Source of the DNA: a virus
Taxonomy: Duplodnaviria > Caudoviricetes
Reading direction: 5' to 3' (one strand)
Length of the DNA: 64,000 nt
Virus record (IMG/VR): IMGVR_UViG_3300036766_002286
A model generated the notes under the pieces. The model made no database searches. It was not told the DNA's origin and worked only from the letters and a program-made list of their open reading frames with translations. Below are positions 2,616 to 62,920 of this stretch, one piece after another. A program made the translations under genes and the position numbers. The stretch's first letter is position 1. Each line of letters opens with the position of its first letter.

Positions 2616-3218
2616 ATGCCGCCAACTAATTTATCACGTACTGAAGTACTAAAGAAAATAAGTAATCATGAAAGCTTGTCTGGTTATAATCTGTCTGGTA
2701 TAGACCTTAGTCAGCTTCAATTGCCTGTGGTGGATTTTTCTAGAAGTAATCTAACCGGAGCTTTATTTTCTATGACAAATTTTAAGCAAGCTAATTTCGA
2801 AGGCGCAAATCTTAGAAGATCCAATTTCAGTCACACCAGTCTAGAAAGCGCTAATTTTGCCCACGCTGATTTGTATGGTGCTGATTTTGACAAGGCATTT
2901 TTGAACGGGGCGAATCTTAATTATGCTAACCTTAAGGGTGCTAGCATGGACGACGTATCATGCGTGCGAGCAAATTTTAGTTTTGCTAATCTTAGAGGAG
3001 CGTATCTAGTCGGCGCCAACTGCGAAAAAGCTATTTTCATCAAAGCCGATCTAACTACAGCGATGCTCGACCATACTAATCTCACTAATGCCAATCTTTC
3101 TCAAGCTATACTAGAAATAACGAGCTCCGCCAAAACCATCTTCCGCAATACTCTCATGCCAGATAATATTCTATGCAACGGAGATATATCTAGTTATGAC
3201 TATAATCACTTGAAGTGA
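2616..3218 (+). CDS. Pentapeptide repeat protein (LTR-type N-cap, MPD C-cap)
   Basis: LSRTEVLKKI start, pentapeptide core, TLMPDN end; AGGAG SD. Confidence 0.92.
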   Translation: MPPTNLSRTEVLKKISNHESLSGYNLSGIDLSQLQLPVVDFSRSNLTGALFSMTNFKQANFEGANLRRSNFSHTSLESANFAHADLYGADFDKAFLNGANLNYANLKGASMDDVSCVRANFSFANLRGAYLVGANCEKAIFIKADLTTAMLDHTNLTNANLSQAILEITSSAKTIFRNTLMPDNILCNGDISSYDYNHLK

Positions 3219-3273
3219 TAGTAGTACACTTTCGCACCTATAGTAAGGTACTCGACCCCCATCTAGGAGACTT

Positions 3274-3879
3274 ATGACCGCAGACAAACTTTCACGTCAC
3301 ACAGTTATAGAGAAACTAGACAACCATGACTGCCTAGCTGGCTATGATTTGACCGGTATTGACCTAAGCGAGCGCTGTATAGACTATGCAGATTTTTCCA
3401 ATTGCACTCTGACTGGAGCTTTATTTTCTATGACAACCTTTAAACATGTAGTTTTTAAAGGTGCAGATTTAACTAATATAAACTTCCGTGGAGCTGTTCT
3501 AGAAGCCGCAGATTTCAGTTTTTCTAAGTTAACATGCACAGATTTTCATGAAGCAAATCTAAACGGAGTTGATTTTAGCCACGCCCGTTTAGATTATGCC
3601 CGTATGGATTATGTAAAACTTAGATATAGTAATTTGAGTTATACTAACCTGACAGATACTAATCTAAAATATGCCGACTTATCACACGCAGTACTGGTTG
3701 GCGCCAATCTGGCAGATACTAATTTCTACAGAGCTAATCTAACAAGAGCTAATCTACGCGATGCACACATAACGCCTAATACAGTTTTTCATATGGTTGA
3801 TTTTACAGGCTGTATTATGCCCAATAATACCATATATAATCAAGCAGACTTCGGCGAGGACATAAATCTCTCTATGTAG
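3274..3879 (+). CDS. Pentapeptide repeat protein, paralog of 2616..3218
   Basis: Shares LTGALFSMT; ends CIMPNN; AGGAG SD. Confidence 0.92.
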   Translation: MTADKLSRHTVIEKLDNHDCLAGYDLTGIDLSERCIDYADFSNCTLTGALFSMTTFKHVVFKGADLTNINFRGAVLEAADFSFSKLTCTDFHEANLNGVDFSHARLDYARMDYVKLRYSNLSYTNLTDTNLKYADLSHAVLVGANLADTNFYRANLTRANLRDAHITPNTVFHMVDFTGCIMPNNTIYNQADFGEDINLSM

Positions 3880-3904
3880 AAGTCAGCCTCACGTATCTCA
3901 ATAT

Positions 3905-4447
3905 TTAGAACAAATGTTTTGTAGCAGCCGTAATTTCATCCACATCGCGCAAAGCGTCTCGCAGTTTATTAAAAGTATCATAACTTTCTCTAAATTTCGG
4001 ACCTAATGTGCCTTTCAGGCTACCAGGATCTAGGGTAAGCGCTTCCATTAATTCTTCCATGTTTATATTCTGTTCCTGATCAGCTCTAGCATTATTAAAG
4101 GCTTCGCTTGCCTTAGCTGCAATGGCTGTGTACCTGTTTATTTCTAACAAAGCTTCATCTGCTGTTCGAATAGTTTTACTTTTTTTCAAAATATCATGGT
4201 TCGTTAAAGGAAATAAATGTATAGTATTTGCTGTATGAATACTAAGAACATCTGCAGCGACCACTGCCGCTGTCATGTCTAATTCGGCCTGCTTTCTTTT
4301 TTCTTCCTCTAAGTCACTTCCCATTGACTTTATAAAAGCAAGTCTGCTAGCTATTGCTATACCACTGACTTTATTACACTCAGCAAGGAGTTCGTCAGTT
4401 TTTTTACTTGCTGCCTCTCTTTCTTTCTGTTTTTTAAACATACCCAT
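3905..4447 (-). CDS. Hypothetical helical protein (KHLF family)
   Basis: Paralog of 4533..5051: HLFP, SKTIRTAxEALL and DVDEITxATKHLF shared; GGAG SD. Confidence 0.8.
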   Translation of the reverse strand: MGMFKKQKEREAASKKTDELLAECNKVSGIAIASRLAFIKSMGSDLEEEKRKQAELDMTAAVVAADVLSIHTANTIHLFPLTNHDILKKSKTIRTADEALLEINRYTAIAAKASEAFNNARADQEQNINMEELMEALTLDPGSLKGTLGPKFRESYDTFNKLRDALRDVDEITAATKHLF

Positions 4448-4532
4448 AATTGATGCTCCTCAGCTGTTTAATTTCTACAATCCTATATCATTATAGCAGT
4501 TTCATAATTTATGTCTTCTAGTAACCAAGTCT

Positions 4533-5051
4533 TTAAAATAAATGTTTGGTGGCTAATGTAATTTCATCCACGTCACACATAGCATAAAGAAATGCTGTTT
4601 TGTCTATTCTAAGTTTCTCAACTTTTTCCACAACTTCAGGCGAGTTTTCGTCTAAACCATCTCTTATCGCAGTCGTTACCGCCACCGCACTTGAAGTAGA
4701 TATTTCAGACAACTCGGCTGCGATTCTTAGATAGGAATTTATCGCGAGCAGGGCTTCCTCAGCTGTTCTAATAGTTTTACTTTCTTTCAAAATATTCAAA
4801 TTTTCTATAGGAAACAAATGTCTCGTTGCATCTACGTGCAGTGACAGAGCATCTACGGCCATACTATATATCTCCCAATTTCGCTCATATTCTATGGCTC
4901 TGGCATACTCGATGTCCGTTCCGACCGATTTTTCCCATTCTAGCTTACTTTTCCGTTCGAGTATAGAAGTGCTATCTATAACATCATTTAATCTCCAAAA
5001 CTCAAGGTCCGCCTCTCTTTTTTCTTTCGTCTTTTTAAATATATTCGCCAT
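4533..5051 (-). CDS. Hypothetical helical protein (KHLF family)
   Basis: Paralog of 3905..4447; GGAGG SD. Confidence 0.8.
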   Translation of the reverse strand: MANIFKKTKEKREADLEFWRLNDVIDSTSILERKSKLEWEKSVGTDIEYARAIEYERNWEIYSMAVDALSLHVDATRHLFPIENLNILKESKTIRTAEEALLAINSYLRIAAELSEISTSSAVAVTTAIRDGLDENSPEVVEKVEKLRIDKTAFLYAMCDVDEITLATKHLF

Positions 5052-5636: not shown

Positions 5637-5652
5637 ATTTAAATTCATGATC

Positions 5653-8974: not shown

Positions 8975-8976
8975 CT

Positions 8977-16482: not shown

Positions 16483-17010
16483 TTATAAATTTATTGTATT
16501 CACAGCAGTTATCCCCGCAATATTGTTAGTTCCTGCTTCCGAGCAATTTTCAGTACTTATTACGATATCCTCTTCATTCCAGGACTCATCCAAGCCCCGG
16601 CACTCTGCTTTCTGTTTTGCGGACAGTACTATATTAGTCATCTTAGCATTCCACAAACTAGTGCCACGCAAGTCACAATTTCGCAAGTTAGCCCCACTCA
16701 AATTAGCACCTCCTAAATTAGTATCTCGCAAATCAGCATTAGTTAGGTCAGCATCTCTGAAATTAGTGATGCTAATACGGGCATCCATCAAATCTGCACC
16801 TATTAGGCATGCCCCGCTAAAATCCGCGCGTCGTAAATCAGTATGACTCAAGTCAGCATTTTCGAGATTAGCACCCCTAAAATCCGCATCACGCAGGTCA
16901 GCACCTGTTAAATTAGCCCCCTGCAAATCCATGTCTGCCCATGATCCACCGTCCGGTAATTCTTGTTTCCCACCGTTGCGGTCAATAAATTTGATATTTG
17001 GTCTACTCAT
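16483..17010 (-). CDS. Pentapeptide repeat protein (YID N-cap, CxG C-cap)
   Basis: PNIKFIDRNG start; LSAKQKAECRG; AAGGAG SD. Confidence 0.93.
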   Translation of the reverse strand: MSRPNIKFIDRNGGKQELPDGGSWADMDLQGANLTGADLRDADFRGANLENADLSHTDLRRADFSGACLIGADLMDARISITNFRDADLTNADLRDTNLGGANLSGANLRNCDLRGTSLWNAKMTNIVLSAKQKAECRGLDESWNEEDIVISTENCSEAGTNNIAGITAVNTINL

Positions 17011-17871: not shown

Positions 17872-18060
17872 ATGTGTTATATATATCGTTACGGAGTCGC
17901 TCTACGTCAAGCAGACTTAACAAGCGCGGATTTCTATAATTCTAATCTTTCTTATGCCAACTTATGTGGAGCTAATCTAACTGACGCCAGTTTTAGGGTT
18001 ATCAACATGGAACATACCATAAAATTAAATTTTTTGTATATAACGCATAAGCCTCTATAG
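17872..18060 (+). pseudogene. Degraded PRP fragment
   Basis: Decayed N-cap (PNMCYIYRYG, compare PNIKYIDRNG), only about 6 pentapeptides, no C-cap. Confidence 0.6.
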
Positions 18061-25204: not shown

Positions 25205-26107
25205 GTGTTTGCTGATAAAAACTCCCCAAACGAAGTACTCAATAGAGTTGAAACCCATCAAACCATGCGAAATCAAGATCTAAGCAACATGGACTTAAGT
25301 GGCTTTTTGCTTGCCGGCGGCGATTTTAGAGGCTCAAACTTTACGGATGCCAATTTAAGTCGGTCCAGCTTCAAAGGTGCAGATTTGACCGGGGCCAAGT
25401 TGTCCAATGCAAATATTGAAGGCTCTAATTTTAGTTCCGTAAGGCTTAGTAACGCCAATTTAACCAATACCTATTTTCGTGGTGCTAATTTAGCAAAAGC
25501 AGATATGACTCGAGCTACTTTTAATAACACAAATCTGGAAGGCTCCAACCTTGATGAGGCAAATCTTACTTCAGCCCTATTTACAAATGTTATTTTAAGC
25601 AGAACAGCTTTAATTGGCGTACTTTTCTGTAATGTTATACTTGATGGTGTAGTTTTCACCAGCTTAAAGATGCATGATGCAGATTTTACTTCCGCTTCAC
25701 TTAAAGGTACTATTTTCGAGGATACCGAGTGCTATGGTGCTAATTTCGAAGGCCTGAATTTGCAAGAAACGAGGTTCAAAGATGTGTATTTAAATGGTGC
25801 AAATTTCACAAACGCAAATCTCACTTTTGTAAATCTTAGCAATATAGATCTAAACTTAGCGTGTTTTATTAATGCTAAGCTAGGCGGCGCAAACTTAAAG
25901 GGCGCTGATTTATCTGAAGCTAATCTCTCCGGAGCTGAGCTAACCATGGCTGCTCTACAAGGCGCTCGTCTGAATGATGCTAATCTGACGGACGCTGATT
26001 TAGCTAGAGCAAATTTGACCGGGGCTAATTTATCTGGCGTCGTATTGTCTGATAGCCAGATAGCAGAATGTATAGGTTATAGCGAAACTATAAGAGACGC
26101 CGAATGA
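25205..26107 (+). CDS. Long pentapeptide repeat protein (LTR-like N-cap, CIG C-cap)
   Basis: AAGGAGG SD + GTG 25205; SPNEVLNRV start; LSDSQIAECIGY end. Confidence 0.92.
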   Translation: MFADKNSPNEVLNRVETHQTMRNQDLSNMDLSGFLLAGGDFRGSNFTDANLSRSSFKGADLTGAKLSNANIEGSNFSSVRLSNANLTNTYFRGANLAKADMTRATFNNTNLEGSNLDEANLTSALFTNVILSRTALIGVLFCNVILDGVVFTSLKMHDADFTSASLKGTIFEDTECYGANFEGLNLQETRFKDVYLNGANFTNANLTFVNLSNIDLNLACFINAKLGGANLKGADLSEANLSGAELTMAALQGARLNDANLTDADLARANLTGANLSGVVLSDSQIAECIGYSETIRDAE

Positions 26108-26580
26108 CAACAAATATCAAATATATTGATCATAACGGCAACTCCCAAGTTCTAGAATGCAGCGAAACTTGGATGGGTGGTAAGGATTTGCGTGGAATTG
26201 ACCTACATGCAGCCGACCTAAGTAATGCTAATCTATGTGTCGCTAATTTATCCGGTGCTAATTTAACAGGTGTAAACTTAAGTGGCGCTTATTTGTATGG
26301 GGTCAATCTGCAGGGCGCGCAGCTATGTAATGCTAATCTACAAGCCGCTATCTGTATATTAGCCGACTTTCGGGAAGCTAATCTAAAAGGAGTTAATCTA
26401 TCTGACGCTAATTTGGATAGCGCTAATTTTAGTAATGCCAATCTAAGTTCAGTAAGTCTTGAGGGTGCTTACTTATATGGAGCAAATCTACGTGACACTG
26501 ATTTGACAGATACGAAAGTGTCTGAAGAGCAGAAAAATTTCCGCCTCGGCTTTGGTGAAACTAGAAGAGATCTAAAATGA
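26104..26580 (+). CDS. Pentapeptide repeat protein (YID N-cap)
   Basis: ATGA overlap; NIKYIDHNG; VSEEQKNFRLG. Confidence 0.93.
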   Translation: MTTNIKYIDHNGNSQVLECSETWMGGKDLRGIDLHAADLSNANLCVANLSGANLTGVNLSGAYLYGVNLQGAQLCNANLQAAICILADFREANLKGVNLSDANLDSANFSNANLSSVSLEGAYLYGANLRDTDLTDTKVSEEQKNFRLGFGETRRDLK

Positions 26581-27573: not shown

Positions 27574-28202
27574 CTATAAAGCACAATTATAAATAGAGCC
27601 ATCTGGCATTATAGCGTTAGTTCTATCAGCGTTTTTAAATGTAGCACCCTCAATGTTAGCATCTGTAAAATTGACATATCTCAGATCAGCATCAGTAAAA
27701 TCTGCGCGCCTACAGTCGGCTCCAGCTAAGTTTACGCCTCTAAAAAAGGTCCCTACTAAATCTGCACCAGTCAAATCCGCCTTTTCTAAGTTGGCGCCAA
27801 ATTTAGTATCTTCCTTACCAGGATATTTCCCATCATTTCCCAGGCGCGCCTCTTGCAGGTTAGCTCTCCTCAAATTTGCCCCTCTAACTTCGCAGATTTA
27901 AGTTCAGCTCTTGTAAGATTGGCTCTGTGAAGATTAGCATCGATTAGTTTTGCATAATTTAAATCAGCCTCATACAGGTCAGCTCCTGATAAATTCGCTC
28001 CTGTAAAGTCACAACCATATAAGCTAGTACTATTTAAATTTGCATTCGTAAAATCAGCCCCAGCACAAAGTGACCATGCCATATTCACACCCGGCAACTC
28101 CACATTTTTCAAATCAACACCAGTTAAATCGACATCAGCACAGCACTCTTTTGCTAGGATTTTAGCCAAAAGCTCGTCACGAGTAAGTTTTTTACTAGTC
28201 AT
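27574..28202 (-). pseudogene. Single PRP gene split by a 1-nt frameshift
   Basis: Adding one G to the G4 run (27879-27882) joins ORFs 27870..28202 and 27574..27873 as LEGANLRRANL, giving one gene with an LTR N-cap and an MPDG C-cap. Confidence 0.8.
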
Positions 28203-28246: not shown

Positions 28247-28786
28247 CTATATAGTACCAGAGTAAATAGTACCATCCGACATAGTTGTACCCATTAGATT
28301 AGCATCGGTAAAGTTTGTATCTTTTATTATAGCATCAGTCAGATCAGCATCACGAAGGTCTGCGCCAGTAAAATCTACGTTACTTAAATCTGCTTCTATA
28401 AATTTCGCACCATTCAATTTAGCATTACGAAAGGTAGCTTCATTAAGGCTGCACGCAGTTAGTTTGGCATTCTTAAGGTCTGCTCTCATAAAACTAGCTC
28501 CAATCAAAGTTGCTCCTATAAATTTTGTATAGCTCAAATCAGCCCCAGTAAACTCCGCCTCAGTTGCCTTCACATCTGAAAAGTCAGAACCATAAAGTTC
28601 CGAGCCACTTAGGTCAGATCTAGACAAATCGGTACCTGTAAAGCACGCCCACCTCGCATTAAGGTCACGTAAGTCCGTTCCAGATAAATCAATGCCAGAC
28701 ACATCCAAAGCACCAAAAATTTTTCTTGGTGGATGTGCTACTATAAGCTCGTCACGAGTAAGTTTTTCGAGCCTTTCATTATCCAT
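28247..28786 (-). CDS. Pentapeptide repeat protein (LTRDEL N-cap)
   Basis: AAGGAG SD; TTMSDGTIY end; leader region similar to that of 28202. Confidence 0.92.
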   Translation of the reverse strand: MDNERLEKLTRDELIVAHPPRKIFGALDVSGIDLSGTDLRDLNARWACFTGTDLSRSDLSGSELYGSDFSDVKATEAEFTGADLSYTKFIGATLIGASFMRADLKNAKLTACSLNEATFRNAKLNGAKFIEADLSNVDFTGADLRDADLTDAIIKDTNFTDANLMGTTMSDGTIYSGTI

Positions 28787-33740: not shown

Positions 33741-34150
33741 GCGAAATCACTCGTGTGGCTTTCTTAGAGATGGTTGCTTCTGGAATAAATACGGGCGACG
33801 TCAACGCAACAGGTCTAGACCTCTCGCATACAAATCTTATGGGCGCCAATCTTAGCCATGCAGACCTGTCCGGCGCCAACTTTTATGGTGCGAATCTTAG
33901 TTACACCAATCTTAGTTATGCAGTTTTTTTCAAAGCTAATTTTACGAAAGCTAATCTATCGTCCGCAGTTCTCATAGGCACAAATTTCTACAAGGCAGTC
34001 TTGATTGAAGCCGATCTCACAGACGTACGTGCAGACTATTCAACATTTTTCAAGGCCGCAAATTTAACCGGAGCACGTTTGTCTATTAGGGAATCAGTTT
34101 CCTCACAATTTTCCAAGACCATTATGCCAGACGGGTCTGTTCATCAATGA
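33737..34150 (+). CDS. Pentapeptide repeat protein (tandem quartet 1)
   Basis: ATGA overlap; ITRVAFLE; GTNFYKAVLIEADL; MPDG. Confidence 0.92.
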   Translation: MSEITRVAFLEMVASGINTGDVNATGLDLSHTNLMGANLSHADLSGANFYGANLSYTNLSYAVFFKANFTKANLSSAVLIGTNFYKAVLIEADLTDVRADYSTFFKAANLTGARLSIRESVSSQFSKTIMPDGSVHQ

Positions 34151-34596
34151 GTAAAATCACTCGTGAGAGTTTTCTAGAAATAGTTAAAAACGATCTGCAC
34201 GGCACCAAGCACCGGCCGATGTCTATCAACTGTACTGGCCTAGATCTCACTCATACAGATCTCAGAGGTATTTGGCTATCTACATTAAATTTAGAAGGAT
34301 GTAATCTATTTGCAGCAGATCTCAGAGGTGCAAACTTTAGCTACTCGAATCTTACCAAAGCTAACCTTACCAAAGCTAATTTGTCACTCGCGACTCTCTT
34401 AGGCACAAATTTCTACAAGGCAGTCTTGATTGAAGCCGATCTCACAGTTATAAGAACCGATTATAGAACAAATTTTAAAGAAGCAAACCTAACCGGAGCT
34501 AATATTACTCGTATCAATTTTACCGATGCTCGCCTTATTAGCGCTAGTTTTTTGCATACCATTATGCCGGACGGCACTCTATGGAGACAACCATGA
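34147..34596 (+). CDS. Pentapeptide repeat protein (tandem quartet 2)
   Basis: ATGA overlap; KITRESFLE; MPDGTLWRQP. Confidence 0.92.
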   Translation: MSKITRESFLEIVKNDLHGTKHRPMSINCTGLDLTHTDLRGIWLSTLNLEGCNLFAADLRGANFSYSNLTKANLTKANLSLATLLGTNFYKAVLIEADLTVIRTDYRTNFKEANLTGANITRINFTDARLISASFLHTIMPDGTLWRQP

Positions 34597-35470: not shown

Positions 35471-36154
35471 ATGAAAACTCTTTCGAAAGAACAAATAGTG
35501 CATAATGCAGCTAACGGTATAAGCATGTTGGGTATTGACGTCAAAGGTATTGACCTATCTGGTTGTGACCTAACTAAAGCTAAATTGACACATGCTAATT
35601 TTACCGGCGCAAATTTAGCCGGCGCAAGTTTATCGGGAGCCAATCTCTCGAACTCTATTTTAGATCATAGCGATATGTCAGACACCAACATAACTAGAGC
35701 TAACTTTCTTTATGCCAGTTTGCAAGAAGTTAATTTAAAAAGAACTAATGCTATAAGTAGCGGCGAGTATTTTACCAATATGTATAAAGCCAAACTTACT
35801 AAAGCCAACCCAACAGACGCTCAACTGCAAGGTGCCTGTTTGCTGGGGGTTATGGCCAACCTTACAAATTTTTCGAATGCTAATCTTACTAATACATATA
35901 TGCAGGAGATCGACTTATATTATGCCAATCTGACAAGGAGCATTCTAGCTAATGCTGATTTGCGTGGCGCAATTTTACATAGGGCGATTCTCCAAGCCAC
36001 CGTCATGTGTTACGCTAATTTGAGAGATGCGCAGCTTTACGTTAATTATCCAAAAACGCCCGCAGCTTTGTTTCAACCATACCGCTATGAGCCGCTGCTC
36101 GTAAACGTAAGTCTTACCGGCGCAATCATGCCCAATGGAAGTATTCATGACTAA
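35471..36154 (+). CDS. Pentapeptide repeat protein with two loop insertions
   Basis: NAISSGEYFT and YVNYPKTPAALFQPYRYEP loops; MPNG. Confidence 0.92.
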   Translation: MKTLSKEQIVHNAANGISMLGIDVKGIDLSGCDLTKAKLTHANFTGANLAGASLSGANLSNSILDHSDMSDTNITRANFLYASLQEVNLKRTNAISSGEYFTNMYKAKLTKANPTDAQLQGACLLGVMANLTNFSNANLTNTYMQEIDLYYANLTRSILANADLRGAILHRAILQATVMCYANLRDAQLYVNYPKTPAALFQPYRYEPLLVNVSLTGAIMPNGSIHD

Positions 36155-37771: not shown

Positions 37772-38380
37772 GTGCACACAAGCAAAGAACAGTTAACTAG
37801 AGAGCAAGTTCTCGAAAAAGTTTCAAACCACGACAGCTTCGCTCACACAGATCTGTCTGGAATGGATCTGTCTAGAATGAATTTGTCAGGGTTAAATTTT
37901 AATCACGCCGGTTTGTATGCAGCAAACCTGACCGGGGCTGATTTCACACAAGCAAGTCTGCTCGGCGCCACCCTAAGTGCGTCCCACATGCAGGGTGCTA
38001 GGTTCACACATGCAGACTTAACTTCCGCCTATTTAATAGCAGCGATAGCCCAGGGCACTGATTTCAGTTTTGCTAATTTACAAGACACCTATTTAATTAC
38101 CACCACTTTTGATAAAGCAAATTTTTATAAAGCCGACATGTCTAGAGCTAGAGTGCGCGGAGCGACTTTTCGTGGAGCGAATCTTGAAAATGCTAATTTA
38201 ACAAATACAGATCTCATCGAAGTTATATCTAATGCTAAATTTCACGCACGCCTTAATCAAGTTATACCGGACATGCTTATATCTTATACTGATTTAGCTT
38301 TTACTGACCTAAGTTTTGCAGACTTTACCAAAGCGAACCTAACGAACACAATAGCCCCAGACGGGTCTGTTCACCTATGA
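37772..38380 (+). CDS. Pentapeptide repeat protein (LTREQVL N-cap)
   Basis: GGAGG SD + GTG; IAPDGSVHL. Confidence 0.92.
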   Translation: MHTSKEQLTREQVLEKVSNHDSFAHTDLSGMDLSRMNLSGLNFNHAGLYAANLTGADFTQASLLGATLSASHMQGARFTHADLTSAYLIAAIAQGTDFSFANLQDTYLITTTFDKANFYKADMSRARVRGATFRGANLENANLTNTDLIEVISNAKFHARLNQVIPDMLISYTDLAFTDLSFADFTKANLTNTIAPDGSVHL

Positions 38381-39072
38381 GTACTTATAAAAATCTCACA
38401 AGGCAAAATATAATAGATAATGTTGCTAATAATGTAGATATGAAGTTTTGGCATATTCGGGGCATTGATTTGTCTTATGCTGATTTGACTAAAGCTCGTT
38501 TTTTTGCTGTTTCATTCGAGAATGTTAATCTTAAAGGGGCGAGCTTGTCCGGAGCTGACTTGCGAGGTGCTACATTAAACGATATTAATTTGTCCTACGC
38601 AAACTTAACCAGAGCAGATCTGTTCGGTGCTTCACTTAAACAAGCCAACCTCCAAGGTATTAACGCTATAAGTCATGGAAAGTATTTTACCGACATGCGC
38701 AACACCAAGCTTCAGGGGGCAAACTTTCATGGCGCACACTTGCAAGGCGTACAACTAATCCTAGCTAAAGCAGAGGGTGCTAATTTCTCATTCGCTAACT
38801 TGACTTCTGCAAATATGACCAGTATTAATCTGACGTCGGCAGATTTAACTAACACGAATATGACTAAAGTTACTCTTGTTCAAGCAACTGCGATAGATGC
38901 TATTTTAAAAAATACTATTATGACAGACGCCAATCTCACAGAATTAAGAGTTAACGGCAACTACCCTCAAACATTTAAAACAACGACAGACCCAGAAGCC
39001 TATGAATTACTACTATCTGACACCATTCTCACCAATGCCATTATGCCCAATGGTGTCATATATGCAAGTTAG
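38377..39072 (+). CDS. Pentapeptide repeat protein, paralog of 35471..36154
   Basis: ATGA overlap; NAISHGKYFT and VNGNYPQTFKTTTDPEAY loops; MPNG. Confidence 0.92.
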   Translation: MSTYKNLTRQNIIDNVANNVDMKFWHIRGIDLSYADLTKARFFAVSFENVNLKGASLSGADLRGATLNDINLSYANLTRADLFGASLKQANLQGINAISHGKYFTDMRNTKLQGANFHGAHLQGVQLILAKAEGANFSFANLTSANMTSINLTSADLTNTNMTKVTLVQATAIDAILKNTIMTDANLTELRVNGNYPQTFKTTTDPEAYELLLSDTILTNAIMPNGVIYAS

Positions 39073-39143
39073 CTATAATATACATGTCAAGCACCACAAT
39101 CCTAAATTCGCCACAATAGTACTATTAAGTTAAGGAGAACCCT

Positions 39144-39959: not shown

Positions 39960-40032
39960 GTTATAAAATAACACCCGCACCTTGCTATTAGTAATACAGC
40001 ATCTACAGTATAAATAAACCAAGGAGACCTCT

Positions 40033-40626
40033 GTGAGTAAACCTAATATAGAATATACTGATCGTAATGATAACGAACAACGTCTACAATGGGACAAGTC
40101 GTGGGCAGACCTCGATTTATGTGGCGCTAATTTTGCAGGCGCCGATCTCAAGGGTGCTAACTTCGCACATTGTGACTTACGTGGCGCTATTTTATACAAG
40201 GCTAATCTAGAGGGCGCTGATTTTCGTAGTGCTGCTATGGTCTCAGCTGACTTAAGTGAAGCTGTCTTAGCTGGCGCAGATCTCTCACATGCAGATCTAT
40301 CATACGCCAAGTTACCTGGAGCAAATCTAGAATCGGCTGATCTGCGTGACGCTAACCTTAATGAAGCTGACCTAAGTGAAGCTAATTTAGTTAATGTCAT
40401 GTTTCACGGCGCTGAATTGAAAAGAGCTAATCTAGCTAATACTAATTTAGAAGGTGCTAATTTTTATCAAGCAACTCTGTATAAGGCTAATCTAGAGGGC
40501 GCTGATTTGCTCGACACTGACTTTAGCGGAGCAACCTTATTTGGTGTGTTATTGTCTGTTCGGCAACGAAATGTATGTCTTGGACGGGACGATGGTATTT
40601 TCGGTGGAGAGACAGCGCATGAATAA
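40033..40626 (+). CDS. Pentapeptide repeat protein
   Basis: AAGGAG SD + GTG; LQWDKSWADLDLCGANF shared with 43663. Confidence 0.93.
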   Translation: MSKPNIEYTDRNDNEQRLQWDKSWADLDLCGANFAGADLKGANFAHCDLRGAILYKANLEGADFRSAAMVSADLSEAVLAGADLSHADLSYAKLPGANLESADLRDANLNEADLSEANLVNVMFHGAELKRANLANTNLEGANFYQATLYKANLEGADLLDTDFSGATLFGVLLSVRQRNVCLGRDDGIFGGETAHE

Positions 40627-41047
40627 GCCTAATATAAAATATATTGATCGCAATGGTAACCCTCAGGAATTATCATGGGGCGAATCATGGGTAGGCATAG
40701 ATTTGGCTGGCGCTAACCTACAGGCCACTGATCTGCGGCAAGCTGAGCTGCCAAAGGCCAACCTGCAAGACGCAAATTTAAGTGGAGCAGATTTGAGACG
40801 TGCTGATTTATGTGATGCTAGTTTGCAAGGCGCTAACCTAGAGCGTGCTAATTTAGGTGGTGCTTACTTTTGGAGAGCTAATTTAAGTCACACCAATCTG
40901 CAACACACTAATTTACTAGGCGTTAATTTTGAAGATGCCAATTTAAGCCAAGCCGACTTTACAAATGCCGATCTGCAAGGTGTGACGCTTACTTTGCATC
41001 AACAAAAAGAGTGCATAGGATATAGTACAACTTCGAGAGACGCATGA
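40619..41047 (+). CDS. Pentapeptide repeat protein (YID N-cap, CIG C-cap)
   Basis: GGAG SD + ATG 40619; PNIKYIDRNG; QQKECIGY. Confidence 0.93.
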   Translation: MNKPNIKYIDRNGNPQELSWGESWVGIDLAGANLQATDLRQAELPKANLQDANLSGADLRRADLCDASLQGANLERANLGGAYFWRANLSHTNLQHTNLLGVNFEDANLSQADFTNADLQGVTLTLHQQKECIGYSTTSRDA

Positions 41048-41138
41048 TGCATAAGCCTAATGTAAAATATATTGATAGTCTAGGTAACCCGCAGGAACTT
41101 GTCTGGGGCGACTCATGGGTAGGCATAGATTTGGCGGG
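40779..41138 (+). repeat. Exact 360-bp direct repeat, copy 1
   Basis: Identical by manual alignment to 44123..44482 (offset 3344). Confidence 0.93.
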
Positions 41139-41484
41139 CGCTAATTTAACTAGCGCCAATCTGGTTGGTGCTAATTTAACTGGTGCTAATTTAACTAACG
41201 CCAATTTGACAGATGCAGCGCTGATTAGTGCAATCCTTCATGATGCAGATTTAAGTGACGCAAATCTACGCAAGGCTTGTCTAGTGCGTGCTACACTGCG
41301 TAATGCTAATCTGACGCGAGCAGATTTACGGGGCGCCACTTTAAATAGCACTAACTTATATGGTGCTGATTTAAGTGCCACTAATCTCACCAATGCTATT
41401 TTAACAGGCATAACCTTGTCAGAACAACAAAAAATCGCATGTATTGGTTATAATGAGTCAACTCCACAGCCAGCAGATATTTAA
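41044..41484 (+). CDS. Pentapeptide repeat protein (YID N-cap, CIG C-cap)
   Basis: ATGA overlap; KYIDSLG; LSEQQKIACIGY. Confidence 0.93.
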   Translation: MMHKPNVKYIDSLGNPQELVWGDSWVGIDLAGANLTSANLVGANLTGANLTNANLTDAALISAILHDADLSDANLRKACLVRATLRNANLTRADLRGATLNSTNLYGADLSATNLTNAILTGITLSEQQKIACIGYNESTPQPADI

Positions 41485-41807: not shown

Positions 41808-42752
41808 TTATTTTGATTTTATATCCCAACCATCAGCTATAATACAGCCATTTAGATTTGCGCCTATAAAGTTAGCATCTCCTAGCCCAGCACCTCTTAA
41901 ATCAGCAAAACTCAAATCAGCATTACCAAAATCGACGTGGTTTAAGTAAGCATCATTAAGCTTGGCATAACTTAAATCAGCACCACTCAGATCACTGTCA
42001 CTTAAGTCAGCACTAGTCAAATTGGCATACCTTAAATTAGCGCAACTTAAATTAGACTGATACAACAGCACGCGGCTTAGATCTGTTTTGCTGAGATCCG
42101 CTCCACGCATATTGGTTTCACTTAGCTTAACGCCGCTCAAGTTAACTCCACCTAAATTGGCTTCAACTAAGTTGGCTCTACTTAAATCTACCTTGTCTAG
42201 CTTGGTGCCTTTACTTAAATCCACCCCACCTAAATAGGCTCCACTCAAGTCGACGCCAACCAAAATAGTTTGACTCAAGTCAGCGCCTTTAAAACTAACC
42301 TTACTTAAATTAGCACCGGTGAAATCGGCGGCATATAAATTGGCTCTAAATAAATTAGCGGCGAGTAAAGTAGCTCCATTAAGCTTGGCGTTAGTTAAAT
42401 CAGCATCGTGTAAAGTAGCTCCATTTAAAACAGCTTTACTTAAATTAGCACTGCTCAGATTAGTATTATTTAGATTAGTATTATTTAGATACGCACTATG
42501 TAAGTTAACCATATACATGCGAGCGTCCTCTAAGTTGGCCCCATTTATACTAGCACTAGATAAATCAGCGTTACGCAAATCAGTTTCAGATAGATCTGCT
42601 CCATCTAAACTAGCTCTGCTTAAGTCCGCACCATTTAAATTAGCACCACTTAAATTGGCTCTACGTAAATCTTTTACTTGTCCATCTAATACAAGTATTG
42701 CGTCTTTTCCATCACAATCAATGTGAGGTACTTCACGATGTTTAGTTGTCAT
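41808..42752 (-). CDS. Long pentapeptide repeat protein (GCIxxxGW C-cap)
   Basis: AGGAG SD + ATG 42752; PHIDCDG; GCIIADGW. Confidence 0.93.
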   Translation of the reverse strand: MTTKHREVPHIDCDGKDAILVLDGQVKDLRRANLSGANLNGADLSRASLDGADLSETDLRNADLSSASINGANLEDARMYMVNLHSAYLNNTNLNNTNLSSANLSKAVLNGATLHDADLTNAKLNGATLLAANLFRANLYAADFTGANLSKVSFKGADLSQTILVGVDLSGAYLGGVDLSKGTKLDKVDLSRANLVEANLGGVNLSGVKLSETNMRGADLSKTDLSRVLLYQSNLSCANLRYANLTSADLSDSDLSGADLSYAKLNDAYLNHVDFGNADLSFADLRGAGLGDANFIGANLNGCIIADGWDIKSK

Positions 42753-43662: not shown

Positions 43663-44391
43663 ATGACCAAACCAAATGTTAAATACAGAGATCGTAATGG
43701 TAACGAGCAACATCTACAATGGGACAAGTCGTGGGCAGACCTCGATTTATGTGGCGCTAATTTTGCAGGTTGCGATCTCATCGGTGCTAACTTCGCCGGC
43801 GCTGACTTACGTGGTGCTATTTTGTACAAGGCTAATCTGCGTGACGCTGATTTCCGTAGTGCTTCTATGATTTGTGCTGACCTAAGTGAAGCTATCTTAA
43901 CTGGCACTGATTTTAGCAATGCGGATTTATCACACGCAAAGCTGCGGGGAGCAAATCTAGAATCGGCTGTTCTAAGGGGCGCTAACCTTAATGAAGCTGA
44001 CCTACGTGAAGCTAATCTAATTAATGTCGCCTTTGCGGGCGCAGAATTGAAAAAAGCTAACTTAAGTAATACTAGTTTGGAAGGGGCTAATTTTTATGGG
44101 GCAACTCTGTATTACGCTAATCTAAGTGGAGCAGATTTGAGACGTGCTGATTTATGTGATGCTAGTTTGCAAGGCGCTAACCTAGAGCGTGCTAATTTAG
44201 GTGGTGCTTACTTTTGGAGAGCTAATTTAAGTCACACCAATCTGCAACACACTAATTTACTAGGCGTTAATTTTGAAGATGCCAATTTAAGCCAAGCCGA
44301 CTTTACAAATGCCGATCTGCAAGGTGTGACGCTTACTTTGCATCAACAAAAAGAGTGCATAGGATATAGTACAACTTCGAGAGACGCATGA
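43663..44391 (+). CDS. Chimeric pentapeptide repeat protein
   Basis: N-part homologous to 40033 gene; C-part identical to 40619 gene. Confidence 0.92.
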   Translation: MTKPNVKYRDRNGNEQHLQWDKSWADLDLCGANFAGCDLIGANFAGADLRGAILYKANLRDADFRSASMICADLSEAILTGTDFSNADLSHAKLRGANLESAVLRGANLNEADLREANLINVAFAGAELKKANLSNTSLEGANFYGATLYYANLSGADLRRADLCDASLQGANLERANLGGAYFWRANLSHTNLQHTNLLGVNFEDANLSQADFTNADLQGVTLTLHQQKECIGYSTTSRDA

Positions 44392-44482
44392 TGCATAAGC
44401 CTAATGTAAAATATATTGATAGTCTAGGTAACCCGCAGGAACTTGTCTGGGGCGACTCATGGGTAGGCATAGATTTGGCGGG
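44123..44482 (+). repeat. Exact 360-bp direct repeat, copy 2
   Basis: Identical to 40779..41138. Confidence 0.93.
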
Positions 44483-44855
44483 AGCCGATTTAAGCGGTGT
44501 AGAGTTAGCCGGCGCTAACTTTTCTAATGCTAATTTGAGACGCGCTAATATGCGACGTACTAACTTAGGCGCAGCAAATCTAAGCGCTGCTTGTTTGGTT
44601 GATTCCGACCTAATTAAAGCTAATTTATGCAGCGCAAATCTGAAAGACGCTAATTTGCGTAGCGCTGATTTAAATCACGCGGATTTAAGTAACACTGACT
44701 TAAGTAATGCTAACTTACGTTTCACTAATTTACGACGTGCTGATTTGCAGGGTGCTGATTTATCAGGCGCCGAACTACGAGGAGTTGAGCTATCTAGCCG
44801 CCAGAAAAAGGCGTGCATTGGTCTTAGTGAAACTGTACAGTCTTCTTATGAGTAG
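44388..44855 (+). CDS. Pentapeptide repeat protein (N-cap identical to 41044)
   Basis: MMHKPNVKYIDSLG...; different core; RQKKACIG. Confidence 0.92.
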   Translation: MMHKPNVKYIDSLGNPQELVWGDSWVGIDLAGADLSGVELAGANFSNANLRRANMRRTNLGAANLSAACLVDSDLIKANLCSANLKDANLRSADLNHADLSNTDLSNANLRFTNLRRADLQGADLSGAELRGVELSSRQKKACIGLSETVQSSYE

Positions 44856-48580: not shown

Positions 48581-48770
48581 AATCCACATCCGGCATCATA
48601 GATTTTATTGAGTCTTGTACAACATAATATTTCCGCATCTATAATACTGTCCGCTATTTGCTAAATAGCGCAAGCACCCTTTATTTTAGCCCATATTTGA
48701 TGCTATATAAATATATTATTTATATTAAAGATATCAAAAGTTATTTAGTATTTTATCAAAATATTTCAAG

Positions 48771-50030: not shown

Positions 50031-50311
50031 AGTAGAGATAGTGTGGTTCTTATAACCTCTGTCAAAAAGCTCTATTAGCACTAATTGTGTTGTCTAGTTG
50101 TGATTTAATATTAAAAAATAAAGCTGCATAAAATAATTTACTTATCTCAGAGCTCTCACAATATTAAATAGTGTACAAAGTCTATTTAGTTATTCTTCAA
50201 CTACACCAATGGTTTACGGCTAATTTTACTCAGATTAATACCCAAAAACTTATCCCAGTAATAAGTCGGTTACTTACAAGCTATTTCGCTAAAACTCGCA
50301 CAATCATAGGT

Positions 50312-60189: not shown

Positions 60190-60191
60190 CT

Positions 60192-60530: not shown

Positions 60531-60531
60531 C

Positions 60532-61043: not shown

Positions 61044-61087
61044 CCGCTGACAATACTAGAAACAAAATAACAATTAAAGGAATCACT

Positions 61088-61225: not shown

Positions 61226-61446
61226 CCGTCAACAATGAATTATCAACCATCGCAATCCGACATTGCATTGAAGGATTGACTGACCCCGACAAGTTATATC
61301 GTGATATGGAACGGTATGGCGCCGAAATCGAGTTGCAAGCCTTGTTGGATGCACTCACCGAAGCACAGACAGAAATCAAAAAACTAAATACCGAAATAGA
61401 CAACATGGTGAACTTGACCGAACACCTACTTGAAGGGAAACTGTAA
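61222..61446 (+). CDS. Small coiled-coil protein (TxAIR/QLxAL family)
   Basis: LSTIAIRHCI...ELQAL. Confidence 0.78.
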   Translation: MTVNNELSTIAIRHCIEGLTDPDKLYRDMERYGAEIELQALLDALTEAQTEIKKLNTEIDNMVNLTEHLLEGKL

Positions 61447-61507
61447 TGACTAATATCAATGCCGCCACTTCACCAACCAACGCAGTTAAAAAATGTGAGA
61501 AACCATA

Positions 61508-61846
61508 ATGGGAACAAACTTCTACCTCCAAGAAAAGCCACCGTGCTCAGAGTGCAAACGAGAATTTGAGCGACTACACATTGGCAAGTCATCTGGTGGC
61601 TGGTGTTTTTCTCTTCATGTGATCCCAGAACTTGGTATCAATAACCTATCGGACTGGGAAAACCGGTGGTATGAGCCGGGTGCAACAATTTGGAATGAAT
61701 ACGACGAACAAGTCAGTCCCTCTGATATGTATATGACAATTGCAGAGCGACCGCCAGACCAATGTCGCCAGCGTCATGATATTGGTAGGTATTGTCTCGG
61801 CTGGGGTGACGGAACTTATGATTTCGTTCCAGGGGAGTTTTCATAA
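61508..61846 (+). CDS. Conserved phage-type hypothetical protein
   Basis: MGTNFY...CSEC...LHIGKSSGGW.FSL...I.NEY...GEFS. Confidence 0.8.
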   Translation: MGTNFYLQEKPPCSECKREFERLHIGKSSGGWCFSLHVIPELGINNLSDWENRWYEPGATIWNEYDEQVSPSDMYMTIAERPPDQCRQRHDIGRYCLGWGDGTYDFVPGEFS

Positions 61847-62085
61847 TGACTACTATCCCATCAACCGACGCAATCCGCGATGTTATAGCGGAACTAAAAT
61901 TATTCGATGCGGCGGGATATCAGAATGGTGAGTTATCCGAAATGATTATGCGAGCCAACGCACAATTGCAGTTTATGGCAGACGACTATCAGCGTCTAGC
62001 ATAAGATAACGGAACAAAAGATGCATATATAAAGAAACTGGAAAAAGATCTTACCAACCTCTTTGAGGCTGTATGTAAAGCATGA
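61846..62085 (+). pseudogene. TxAIR family gene with in-frame TAA
   Basis: PSTDAIRDVI...AQLQF...RLA* (62002-62004), then DNGTKDAYIKKLEKDL...-TGA in the same frame. Confidence 0.65.
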
Positions 62086-62100
62086 ATATGGGAGAAATTT

Positions 62101-62502
62101 ATGACAAACACTAACAAAGCTCACTCGCACACTGATCTGAGTACAACAGACAAAACTATAATAGATTTATCCGGCGGACTATTAGTATTACTTGAACATC
62201 TAGATTCATGCCCACTCTGCCGCGGCGTCGGAACTCAAGAGTGTCATGTAGTGGGCGATCTTCAGTACAGTCTGCGCCAAGCATATCTCAACTACAACAC
62301 TATACACTCCTCTATCAGTTCAGTAGATTTAGCTGCCTCATCACTGCCACTCCATGACCATCTTGTCTCATGTTCAATATGTCGTCAAGACGGCACTCAA
62401 TGGTGCGACGCAGTAGAAAAGCTTCAAAGCAATCTGCGGTTATTACATCTAAACGCTATTCGTTTCTATACGGAGCATCAGGGGGAACAAAATGAGACCT
62501 AA
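62101..62502 (+). CDS. Protein with two tandem HxxxCxxC...C zinc-binding repeats
   Basis: HLDSCPLCRGVGTQEC..LQYSLR and HLVSCSICRQDGTQWC..LQSNLR. Confidence 0.75.
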   Translation: MTNTNKAHSHTDLSTTDKTIIDLSGGLLVLLEHLDSCPLCRGVGTQECHVVGDLQYSLRQAYLNYNTIHSSISSVDLAASSLPLHDHLVSCSICRQDGTQWCDAVEKLQSNLRLLHLNAIRFYTEHQGEQNET

Positions 62503-62920
62503 TGTGCACTACACAGACAACGTCGGTAATCCAAAAGAATTAGTATGGAGTGAGTCATGGGAAGGAAAAGATCTACGCCAGGCCCTTCTACAGGGTGCCA
62601 ATTTACATGACGCTAATCTGTTTGGAGCCGATTTGGGCGGCGCTAGTTTGGCTAGAGCCGACTTATCTAGCTCCGAGCTATCAGGAGTCAATTTATCTAA
62701 TGCTAATCTATGCGATGCTTACATGCACGGCGCGAATCTGCATGGTGCCCTTCTTATTAACGCCGAACTCCGTCGCGCTGATTTGACTAATGCCGATTTG
62801 TGTGGTGCTAATTTTGCTGGTGCAGATATGCGTGAAGCCGACCTGCATGGAGTAAATCTAGATCGTGTCGCCTTGTCTTTCAAGCAGCAAAAAGAATGTA
62901 TTGGTTATGGCGAGATATAG
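62492..62920 (+). CDS. Pentapeptide repeat protein (Y-type N-cap, CIG C-cap)
   Basis: PNVHYTDNVG..ELVWSESW; QQKECIGY. Confidence 0.93.
   Translation: MRPNVHYTDNVGNPKELVWSESWEGKDLRQALLQGANLHDANLFGADLGGASLARADLSSSELSGVNLSNANLCDAYMHGANLHGALLINAELRRADLTNADLCGANFAGADMREADLHGVNLDRVALSFKQQKECIGYGEI

What the first reader, a model, noticed from the sequence alone, without database searches (positions are those of the whole stretch)
2616..62920. Mix-and-match capping modules on the PRPs
Seen: two N-caps recur. One is PNIKYIDRNGxxQxLxWxxSW (for example 5704, 16483-17010, 24610, 26104, 36833, 40619, 44848, 62492). The other is LTRxxVLxxI (2616, 17201, 18071, 28247-28786, 33174, 37772). Three C-caps recur: (M/L/A)PDG, LSxxQxxxCIG and GCIxxxGW. 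At least five pairings occur: YID+CIG (40619), YID+PDG (24610), YID+GW (41808), LTR+PDG (18071) and LTR-like+CIG (25205). Protein length runs from about 110 to 315 aa. Inference: caps and cores are exchanged as modules through crossovers in the repetitive core. The caps may also set head-to-tail or dimer assembly, as the C-terminal segment does in MfpA and Qnr dimers.
Basis: partly seen in the sequence, partly recalled or inferred. Interest (0 to 1): 0.78.

Follow-up and report, generated by a model that had tools for sequence, protein, structure and literature searches.

The report
Pentapeptide-repeat gene families with recombining end-caps
The window holds 41 genes for rod-shaped pentapeptide-repeat proteins whose recurring end-caps mostly mark separate gene subfamilies rather than freely swapped parts, although one recent recombination inside the repeats fused two neighbouring genes and moved a cap onto a different rod.

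Summary
Observation confirmed. The window has 41 intact pentapeptide-repeat (PRP) genes and two pseudogenes. They carry two N-caps (YID, LTR) and three C-caps (PDG, CIG, GW) at the stated coordinates, far above chance.

AlphaFold2 models show ordinary solenoid end-caps. YID is a beta-hairpin, LTR a helix, CIG a helix and PDG a tight hairpin.

Pairing is not free: LTR goes with PDG in 16 of 17 genes, and CIG with YID in 10 of 12. YID sub-types and core composition follow the C-cap. The long YID+PDG proteins align over their whole length. So the five pairings are mainly paralogous subfamilies.

Recombination in the repeats is nevertheless real. A perfect 360-nt tract (40779-41138 = 44123-44482) lies between diverged flanks. 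Its left edge, inside a pentapeptide unit, fuses a g40033-like gene to the g40619 tail, giving g43663. Shorter perfect tracts and a low synonymous distance in an N-cap show older events.

Only g25205 and g44848 look like cap re-pairings, and only suggestively. AU tests do not reject congruent cap histories. Cap-mediated assembly remains untested.

The scan noted conserved caps on shuffled PRP cores before, in a phage on other DNA.

The parts
58..579 (+). PRP, no recognised N-cap + CIG C-cap (173 aa)
2616..3218 (+). PRP, LTR + PDG-like (MPDN), 200 aa
3274..3879 (+). PRP, LTR + PDG-like (MPNN), 201 aa
5226..5636 (+). PRP with Lys-rich N-terminus and neither cap type, 136 aa
5704..6441 (+). PRP, YID + PDG-like (MPNG) with a C-terminal tail, 245 aa
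8189..8653 (+). PRP, divergent YID, no recognised C-cap, 154 aa
8977..9387 (+). PRP, YID-like + degenerate CIG, 136 aa
10881..11210 (+). PRP, YID-like, no recognised C-cap, 109 aa
15639..16472 (-). PRP, weak LTR-like + PDG, 277 aa
16483..17010 (-). PRP, YID + CIG (CRG) with a tail, 175 aa
17201..17842 (+). PRP, LTR + degenerate PDG (SPTG), 213 aa
18071..18649 (+). PRP, LTR + PDG, 192 aa
18758..19195 (+). PRP, weak YID-like + PDG-like (MPNG), 145 aa
23101..23763 (+). PRP without N-cap (repeat frame is open upstream of the ATG) + PDG, 220 aa
23756..24487 (+). PRP, LTR + PDG, 243 aa
24610..25194 (+). PRP, YID + PDG, 194 aa
25205..26107 (+). PRP, LTR-like helix N-cap + true CIG C-cap, 300 aa. Candidate chimera: core composition switches near residue 220.
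26104..26580 (+). PRP, YID + degenerate CIG, 158 aa
26577..27065 (+). PRP, YID + degenerate CIG, 162 aa
27086..27547 (-). Pseudogene: YID N-cap, three in-frame stops, PDG-like (IMSDG) end
27574..28202 (-). Frameshifted LTR + PDG gene (two ORFs overlapping at 27870-27897)
28247..28786 (-). PRP, LTR + PDG (MSDG), 179 aa
28848..29723 (-). PRP, YID + PDG, long subfamily, 291 aa
33174..33740 (+). PRP, LTR + PDG, 188 aa
33737..35455 (+). Four tandem LTR + PDG genes (33737-34150, 34147-34596, 34593-35018, 35015-35455) with ATGA start/stop overlaps
33975..34022 (+). 48-nt perfect tract in the core, identical to 34400-34447, in a pair otherwise about 70% identical
34570..34596 (+). 27-nt perfect tract across the C-cap and the next start codon, identical to 34992-35018
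35471..36154 (+). PRP, LTR + PDG (MPNG), 227 aa
36147..36806 (+). PRP, LTR + PDG, 219 aa
36833..37690 (+). PRP, YID + extended PDG cap (FDPDHxFEG..LPDGTLY), long subfamily, 285 aa
37772..38380 (+). PRP, LTR + PDG, 202 aa; modelled (helix 10-18, terminal hairpin 193-201)
38377..39072 (+). PRP, LTR + PDG (MPNG), 231 aa
39144..39959 (+). PRP, YID + extended PDG cap, long subfamily, 271 aa
40033..40626 (+). PRP, YID + CIG (CLG), 197 aa. Older paralogue of the N part of g43663 (82% nt identity, dS 0.46).
40619..41047 (+). PRP, YID + CIG, 142 aa; modelled (hairpin 6-18, helix 126-132). Its last 88 codons lie in the perfect tract.
40779..41138 (+). Copy A of the 360-nt perfect tract: 3' core and CIG cap of g40619 plus the YID cap of g41047
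41047..41484 (+). PRP, YID + CIG, 145 aa. Its first 31 codons are identical to g44391; its core is unrelated to that of g44391.
41808..42752 (-). PRP, YID variant (no Trp pair) + GW, 314 aa
42742..43155 (-). PRP, N-terminal extension + YID variant + GW, 137 aa
43663..44391 (+). Fusion PRP, 242 aa: g40033-like N part (codons 1-153) joined inside an ANLxGADL unit to the g40619 tail
44123..44482 (+). Copy B of the 360-nt perfect tract
44391..44855 (+). PRP, YID + CIG, 154 aa
44848..45612 (+). PRP, 254 aa: body and PDG cap of the long subfamily, but a CIG-subtype YID cap. Candidate N-cap replacement.
62492..62920 (+). PRP, YID + CIG, 142 aa

Best explanation
The PRP genes form several old paralogous subfamilies, each with its own N-cap, C-cap and core style. 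They were expanded by tandem duplication into tightly packed, often start/stop-overlapping arrays.

The subfamilies are:
- YID-a hairpin + regular Arg/Gly-rich core + CIG helix.
- LTR helix + irregular Thr/Ser/Phe-rich core + PDG turn.
- YID-b + long core + extended PDG cap.
- YID-c + GW.

The caps are structural end-pieces that close the two open ends of the beta-helix (inferred from the models and from general knowledge of solenoids).

On top of this vertical descent, homologous recombination uses the 15-nt pentapeptide units as landing sites. Conversion tracts or unequal crossovers begin and end in cores. They therefore carry a 'C-cap + start of the next gene + N-cap' junction between neighbours, and they fuse, resize or re-cap rods.

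Shown: one recent event and several older footprints, all within one cap class.
Inferred: the rare odd pairings (g25205 LTR+CIG; g44848 with a CIG-type YID cap on a PDG body) arose the same way.
For: Caps are real and positioned at the ends.

Models:
- g40619, pLDDT 89.9: hairpin 6-9/15-18 and helix 126-132.
- g37772, pLDDT 88.6: helix 10-18 and terminal hairpin 193-201.
- The fold matches solved PRPs: VIA Z = 19.8, rmsd 2.4 A over 131 residues to 3N90.

Co-descent of caps and cores:
- Contingency table, Fisher p = 0.0024.
- Leave-one-out core composition separates 8 of 9 YID+CIG genes from all 16 LTR+PDG genes.
- N-cap log-odds separate CIG-type from PDG-type YID caps.
- GW proteins share a third YID variant, supported 95/83.
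- The long YID+PDG proteins are colinear and form a 98/98 clade.
- C-cap labels cluster on the N-module tree in 0 of 200 shuffles.

Recombination:
- 360 nt are perfectly identical, next to a flank with dS 0.46 and dN/dS 0.34 and a 286-nt deletion. Chance of such a run at 82% identity is about 1e-31.
- Both edges lie at pentapeptide units.
- Perfect runs of 48, 27 and 25 nt occur elsewhere.
- N-cap pS is 0.29 against core pS 0.74 for g40619/g41047.

Odd pairings:
- The g25205 core switches class near residue 220 (permutation p = 0.009), and its tail best matches only YID+CIG genes.
- The g44848 head best matches g40619, g41047 and g44391, while its body best matches g39144 and g36833.
Against: - The cap trees have about 60 columns and are mostly unresolved, so co-descent rests on label clustering rather than on supported clades.
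- The Fisher test counts tandem duplicates as independent. With obvious duplicates collapsed the association would be only borderline (my own rough estimate, not computed).
- The change-point test also flagged 3 of 25 control genes at p <= 0.01.
- The core composition score partly measures how regular the repeats are, not ancestry.
- Within LTR+PDG, N-cap and C-cap similarities are uncorrelated (Mantel r = -0.02). That could reflect either noise or more exchange than I credit.
- The 360-nt tract could not be checked against reads or a second assembly. Exact-match look-ups of g43663, g41047 and g44391 found nothing.
- Only this 64-kb window of the replicon was available.
Confidence: 0.7

Rival explanations
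1. Free modular shuffling. Caps and cores are routinely re-assorted by crossovers in the core, and this process created the five pairings as a combinatorial repertoire.
For: - Five pairings exist.
- Breakpoints in cores are demonstrated.
- There is no N-cap/C-cap similarity correlation within LTR+PDG.
- YID+PDG needs 4 label changes on the C-module tree.
- g25205 and g44848 look chimeric.
Against: - Cap types are strongly associated.
- Cap sub-types and core composition follow the partner cap.
- The long YID+PDG proteins are colinear end to end.
- AU tests do not reject single clades (p = 0.08-0.37).
- All proven exchanges are within one cap class.
- Most paralogues are saturated at synonymous sites in caps and cores alike.
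Confidence: 0.15
2. Pure vertical descent, with the apparent mosaic an assembly or polishing artefact. The subfamilies never exchange parts, and the 360-nt identity comes from repeat collapse in a metagenome assembly.
For:
- An independent short-read assembly breaks at these repeats: the 5.7-kb contig ends near window position 40112.
- The mosaic genes were not found in another assembly.
Against: - Both copies have unique flanks on both sides, and the reading frames run through both junctions.
- Polishing could sharpen identity from about 97% to 100% but not from 82%.
- Independent shorter footprints (48, 27 and 25 nt, and N-cap pS 0.29 against 0.74) occur in other genes.
Confidence: 0.07
3. 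The caps are interaction modules. They specify homodimers (CIG helix, as in MfpA/Qnr) or head-to-tail stacking of neighbouring gene products, so cap pairing is selected for assembly rather than for capping alone.
For: - CIG is a C-terminal helix, as are the dimerising helices of MfpA, Qnr and AlbG (PMC8145042).
- Neighbouring genes are translationally coupled by 4- or 8-nt overlaps.
- A CIG cap is followed by a YID gene at 6 of 7 junctions (counted).
- The engineered Np275-Np276 fusion was solved as one chain (PDB 2J8K title).
Against: - There is no positive evidence for any interface.
- The CIG helix is 7 residues in the model, against 10-12 in the Qnr-type helices.
- The caps show no sequence match to solved PRP caps: hits cover the repeats only.
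- The CIG-to-YID adjacency is equally explained by tandem clustering of one subfamily.
Confidence: 0.15

Closest known systems
Stand-alone cyanobacterial PRPs with terminal caps (Np275/Np276, PDB 2J8I/2J8K; HetL, 3DU1; Rfr23/Rfr32; At2g44920, 3N90)
   Same: - Same Rfr right-handed quadrilateral beta-helix: VIA Z = 18-20 (rmsd 2.2-2.8 A, 124-131 residues aligned) to 3N90, 3DU1, 2J8K and 2O6W.
- Small stand-alone proteins.
- The LTR cap is an N-terminal helix followed by the first coil, as in the helix-capped PRPs (the review counts 13 of 16 structures with helical caps; PMC8145042).
- Np275 and Np276 were solved as an engineered fusion (entry title), comparable to the natural fusion g43663. That they are neighbouring genes is from my own knowledge.
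   Different: - The YID beta-hairpin N-cap and the CIG motif have no sequence match among solved PRPs; hits cover the repeats only.
- The YID cap is rare: three PRPs from outside this window among the 150 listed hits (of 260 at E <= 0.001) in 1.84 billion representatives.
- Here 41 genes sit in 64 kb.
Topoisomerase-protecting PRPs (MfpA, QnrB1, AhQnr, EfsQnr, AlbG)
   Same: - PRP fold.
- A C-terminal helix in the CIG class.
- A type IIA topoisomerase A-subunit gene lies next to the array at 46148-48589.
   Different: - The scores shown are far below the NCBIfam cut-offs: g58 scores 38 bits against 240 for Qnr and 23 against 360 for MfpA, and the best E-values among the 41 are 1e-27 and 4e-21.
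- The dimerising helix-plus-strand motif was not recognisable in sequence.
- Most genes here carry a PDG turn instead of a helix.
Concerted evolution and unequal crossing-over in tandem repeat-protein gene families (general principle)
   Same: - Conversion tracts bounded by repeat units.
- Gene fusion by deletion between neighbours.
- Homogenised end segments beside diverged middles.
   Different: Here the exchanged unit is the cap-to-cap gene junction of a beta-solenoid array. A full-text search for pentapeptide repeat with gene conversion, tandem and paralogs found no paper. The library is limited, so this is not proof of absence.
Phage PRP family with invariant caps and a shuffled core, noted earlier in this scan (e1-3263550, other DNA)
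   Same: Conserved end pieces, variable recombining beta-helix cores, and many copies per genome.
   Different: - That family has one cap type and a 64-residue C-terminal domain.
- Here there are several short cap types in distinct subfamilies.

Membership tests
Pentapeptide repeat proteins (Pfam PF00805, Rfr fold) | At least eight contiguous A(D/N)LXX pentapeptide repeats | tested here: met
   All 41 proteins hit PF00805; best E-value 4.6e-96. The unit parse found 20-54 units in the three genes printed.
Pentapeptide repeat proteins (Pfam PF00805, Rfr fold) | Right-handed quadrilateral beta-helix | tested here: met
   For two predicted models only: pLDDT 89.9 and 88.6. Foldseek E = 1e-7 and VIA Z = 19.8, rmsd 2.4 A over 131 residues to 3N90.
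Qnr / MfpA / AlbG topoisomerase-protecting PRPs | Score above the curated NCBIfam cut-offs (Qnr 240 bits, MfpA 360 bits) | tested here: not met
   g58 scores 38.1 and 22.9 bits. The best E-values among the 41 are 1.2e-27 (Qnr) and 3.9e-21 (MfpA), which suggests scores below the cut-offs, although bit scores were shown for g58 only.
Qnr / MfpA / AlbG topoisomerase-protecting PRPs | C-terminal helix that forms a head-to-head homodimer | not testable with these tools
   The monomer model gives a 7-residue C-terminal helix in the CIG class. The oligomeric state needs an experiment.
HetL (NCBIfam NF047416) | Score above the curated cut-off of 260 bits | tested here: not met
   g58 scores 59.7 bits. 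The best E-value among the 41 is 1.5e-52, which suggests a score below the cut-off, although bit scores were shown for g58 only.
   Fisher p = 0.0024 on raw counts. Cap sub-types also co-vary.
   Both edges of the 360-nt perfect tract lie at pentapeptide units, and a 48-nt perfect tract lies in a core.
   AU p = 0.09 and 0.08 for the C module, and 0.25-0.37 for the N module. The alignments have about 60 columns and most branches are unsupported.

The most novel reading that the evidence does not exclude
The unit of exchange in these arrays is a compact 'junction cassette': the tail of one core, a C-cap, the overlapping stop/start and the N-cap of the next gene. By moving this cassette into or out of cores, the replicon splits, fuses and resizes beta-helix rods. 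That would make it a dedicated diversity-generating mechanism for a protein repertoire, comparable in logic to cassette-based antigenic variation. The lineage-restricted YID hairpin and CIG helix would have been recruited for it.
Probability: 0.2. Interest if true: 0.65.

Novelty: new variant of a known kind. Interest (0 to 1): 0.45.

Why it matters
PRPs are abundant, yet for most of them no function is known, and how their families diversify is little studied. This array shows three things.
- End-caps come in discrete structural kinds, including a predicted beta-hairpin N-cap that did not match the caps of solved PRPs, which are mostly helical.
- Caps, cores and lengths evolve together as subfamilies.
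- The 15-nt repeat lattice lets recombination fuse neighbouring genes and transplant caps.

This gives a concrete, testable route by which rod length and surface can change quickly in a giant mobile replicon. It also supplies natural cap/core chimeras (g43663, g41047/g44391) for folding and design studies of beta-solenoids.

Tried and rejected
- Homodimer prediction of g40619 (two copies, alignment A4): no verdict, score 0.00 against a mark of 0.42. This is no evidence either way.
- A whole genome (G000) is not held for this window, so the rest of the replicon's PRPs could not be counted.
- A whole-protein homologue search returned only generic PRPs matched through the repeats, none carrying these caps.
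- A search with the C-terminal 43 residues of g40619 found no candidate.
- A metagenome scan with g43663 returned 49 loci at 27-45% identity, none with YID, CIG or GW caps and none from the source contig.
- Exact-match look-ups of g43663, g41047 and g44391 found nothing. P0138 was also not on record, and the P0137 and P0123 contigs had no DNA available.
- PDB sequence searches matched only the repeats, not the caps.
- I considered that mixed pairings arise as fusions and are therefore longer. I dropped this because short YID+PDG genes exist: g18758 (145 aa), the pseudogene at 27086-27547, and the 72-aa P0137.
- I considered an unequal-crossover origin for the gene order LTR+PDG / YID+PDG / YID+CIG at 38377-40626. 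The g39144 caps are not close to those of either neighbour.
- The core change-point scan found no switch in any YID+PDG or GW gene.
- A literature search for PRP gene conversion found no paper.

Full report
WHAT IS THERE. The window is about 41% G+C. I curated 41 intact pentapeptide-repeat protein (PRP) genes of 109-314 aa, with starts set by the cap motifs and gene overlaps. All 41 hit Pfam PF00805. For g58, the only gene whose bit scores were shown, no specific NCBIfam family (HetL, Qnr, MfpA, PipB) reached its curated cut-off, and the best E-values among the 41 suggest the same for the rest. Two more genes are decayed. One, at 27086-27547(-), has a YID cap, three in-frame stops and an IMSDG end. 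The other, at 27574-28202(-), is a frameshifted LTR...PDG gene. Many neighbours overlap by 4 or 8 nt.

All the example coordinates carry the stated motifs. Against 200 residue shuffles of the same proteins, the motifs are 12- to 900-fold enriched and sit almost only at the expected end:
- YID: 19 hits, 18 N-terminal; shuffle mean 0.4.
- LTR: 17 hits, 13 N-terminal; shuffle mean 1.4.
- PDG: 21 hits, 20 C-terminal; shuffle mean 0.5.
- CIG: 9 hits, all C-terminal; shuffle mean 0.01.
- GW: 2 hits; shuffle mean 0.

The manual table is YID+CIG 10, YID+PDG 7, YID+GW 2, YID+none 2, LTR+PDG 16, LTR+CIG 1, none+CIG 1, none+PDG 1 and uncapped 1. The single LTR+CIG gene, g25205, starts at a GTG that lies 5 nt behind an AAGGAGG site, so its N-terminal helix is coding.

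WHAT THE CAPS ARE. I modelled two proteins with AlphaFold2, using subfamily alignments.
- g40619 (pLDDT 89.9): the YID motif is a two-stranded beta-hairpin (residues 6-9 and 15-18), and the CIG motif is a short helix (126-132).
- g37772 (pLDDT 88.6): the LTR motif is a helix (10-18), and the PDG motif is a tight terminal hairpin (193-201).

The bodies match solved PRPs, with VIA Z = 19.8 and rmsd 2.4 A over 131 residues to 3N90, and Z = 18-19 to HetL, Np275/276 and Rfr23. Sequence searches of the PDB match only the repeats, never the caps. The 2021 review counts 13 of 16 solved PRPs with alpha-helical caps (PMC8145042). So the LTR helix is the ordinary kind, and the YID hairpin matched no cap of a solved PRP in these searches.

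The caps differ in how widely they occur:
- A profile of 20 YID caps, searched against 1.84 billion representative proteins, gave 260 hits at E <= 0.001. Among the 150 listed, only three PRPs come from outside this window. P0135 ends in MPSGW, P0137 is 72 aa and ends in MPDGSIHE, and P0138 ends in MMPDD.
- The PDG ending also occurs in two other PRPs among the search hits, P0120 and P0227, which lack a YID cap.
- The CIG ending was found nowhere else at the sensitivity available.
- P0135's MPSGW ending suggests that PDG and GW are variants of one turn. This is my inference.

ARE THE CAPS MIXED FREELY? No.
- LTR goes with PDG in 16 of 17 genes, and CIG goes with YID in 10 of 12. Fisher p = 0.0024 on raw counts, which tandem duplicates inflate.
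- The YID cap has three sub-types that follow the C-cap. The first is PQEL-W..SW with CIG, the second is P-A-x-L with PDG, and the third lacks Trp and ends in KDLR with GW. Leave-one-out log-odds separate the first two sub-types, and the GW pair is a 95/83 clade.
- Core composition also follows the cap class. Leave-one-out scores are positive for 8 of 9 YID+CIG genes and negative for all 16 LTR+PDG genes.
- The long YID+PDG proteins (g28848, g36833, g39144, g44848) align over their whole length, including an extended FDPDHxFEG...LPDGTLY cap. They form a 98/98 clade in the C-module tree.
- C-cap labels cluster on the N-module tree better than any of 200 shuffles.
- AU tests do not reject single clades for the YID+PDG group, in either the C module (p = 0.09, 0.08) or the N module (p = 0.25-0.37).

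These trees have about 60 columns and are mostly unresolved. Congruence is therefore 'not rejected', not shown. Most paralogue pairs are saturated at synonymous sites (pS 0.6-0.9) in caps and cores alike, so the subfamilies are old.

IS THERE RECOMBINATION IN THE CORES? Yes. The segment 40779-41138 is identical base for base to 44123-44482, a stretch of 360 nt.
- To the left, 40039-40509 and 43669-44139 are only 82% identical (dS 0.46, dN/dS 0.34, changes concentrated at the two outward positions), and locus B lacks 286 nt.
- To the right, identity drops at once to about 55%.
- A perfect run of 360 nt at 82% background identity has a chance of about 1e-31.

The left edge lies inside a pentapeptide unit (ANL-E/S-GADL). 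It joins a g40033-like N part to the last 88 codons of g40619, giving the 242-aa fusion gene g43663 (N part 79% identical to g40033, C part 100% identical to g40619). The right edge lies at codon 31 of the next gene, just after the YID cap. As a result, g41047 and g44391 share an identical cap on unrelated cores. The transferred piece is thus '3-prime core + CIG cap + overlapping stop/start + YID cap', that is, a gene junction.

Older or smaller footprints exist:
- A 48-nt perfect run in the cores of g33737 and g34147, in a pair otherwise about 70% identical.
- 27 nt across the C-cap and next start codon of g34147/g34593.
- 25 nt in the C-cap of g39144/g44848.
- 57 nt in the N-cap of g40033/g43663.
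- Between the adjacent genes g40619 and g41047, synonymous distance is 0.29 in the N-cap against 0.74 in the core and 0.90 in the C-cap. This points to an earlier homogenisation of the cap DNA rather than protein-level constraint alone.

DO SUCH EVENTS RE-PAIR CAP TYPES? Two candidates, both only suggestive.
- g25205 (LTR-like helix + CIG, the longest of its kind) has an LTR+PDG-like core up to about residue 220 and a YID+CIG-like core after it (permutation p = 0.009). Three of 25 control genes also reached p <= 0.01. Its last 85 residues best match four YID+CIG genes, co-terminally.
- g44848 has the body and cap of the long YID+PDG subfamily, but its first 60 residues best match g40619, g41047 and g44391. 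Its cap scores +4.3 bits towards the CIG type, while its five PDG-type relatives score negative. It lies directly behind a CIG-capped gene.

No YID+PDG or GW gene shows a core switch.

CAVEATS. The perfect tract could not be checked against reads or another assembly. Exact-match look-ups failed, and an independent short-read assembly of run SRR11714510 breaks at these repeats. Both copies have unique flanks and open frames through both junctions, so a real two-copy repeat is far more likely than a mis-join. Polishing could still have sharpened near-identity to identity. Only this 64-kb window could be analysed.

ASSEMBLY ROLE OF THE CAPS. Nothing here tests it. The models show caps folded back on their own helix ends, as in other solenoids. 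The oligomeric state needs an experiment.

VERDICT. The caps are subfamily signatures that mostly descend together with their cores. Repeat-guided recombination does fuse genes and transplant cap-bearing junctions, and it may occasionally create a new pairing.

Noticed in passing
window 40625-40726 and the other YID caps; P0126, P0128, P0129, P0133, P0146, P0158, P0268: The YID cap profile also hits many proteins built from tandem units of the form QQHVNYIDxxGHVHELxYxxxWxHNDLT, with E-values down to 5e-21 summed over as many as 14 units. One of them has a sub-threshold hit to the fungal fucose-specific lectin propeller (PF07938, 24.0 bits against a cut-off of 25.3). The cap may therefore resemble, or derive from, a single propeller-blade hairpin.
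   Followed up: partly
window 46148-48589 (-): A type IIA topoisomerase A subunit (PF00521, E = 7e-145, with one GyrA C-terminal blade) lies about 500 nt from the end of the PRP array. A trypsin-like protease lies at 48771-50081.
   Followed up: partly
window 6470-8035 (-), 11392-12909 (+), 12982-14457 (-): Three ORFs of about 500 aa have no Pfam hit. They appear to share a C-terminal motif (W..F/Y..LGE/N.W/F.G.L..LL), so they may be a paralogous family of unknown function interleaved with the PRPs.
   Followed up: no
window 3905-4447 (-) and 4533-5051 (-): Two adjacent ORFs of 180 and 172 aa share DNA segments that are 73-75% identical (repeat families D10 and D12). They look like a duplicated non-PRP gene pair.
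   Followed up: no
window 40198-40223 and 40483-40508: A 26-nt exact internal repeat lies within g40033, with its copies 285 nt apart. The second copy abuts the point where locus B switches to the g40619 sequence, and the deletion in locus B is 286 nt. I did not work out whether this is a coincidence.
   Followed up: no
Logan assembly of SRR11714510 (no DNA available): The same run carries g39144 and its neighbours on a 5.7-kb contig that ends at the PRP repeats. It also carries a 44.9-kb contig with a 72-aa YID+PDG PRP (P0137) beside WhiB, SbcCD-like, intein-bearing SufB and FtsH-like genes. That contig is either another part of this replicon or a relative.
   Followed up: partly
window 50171-53251 (+): A 1026-aa ORF with long poly-Thr linkers; not examined.
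   Followed up: no
window 17872-18060 (+): A short capless PRP fragment (62 aa) lies between two LTR+PDG genes. It is probably a remnant of a decayed or recombined copy.
   Followed up: no
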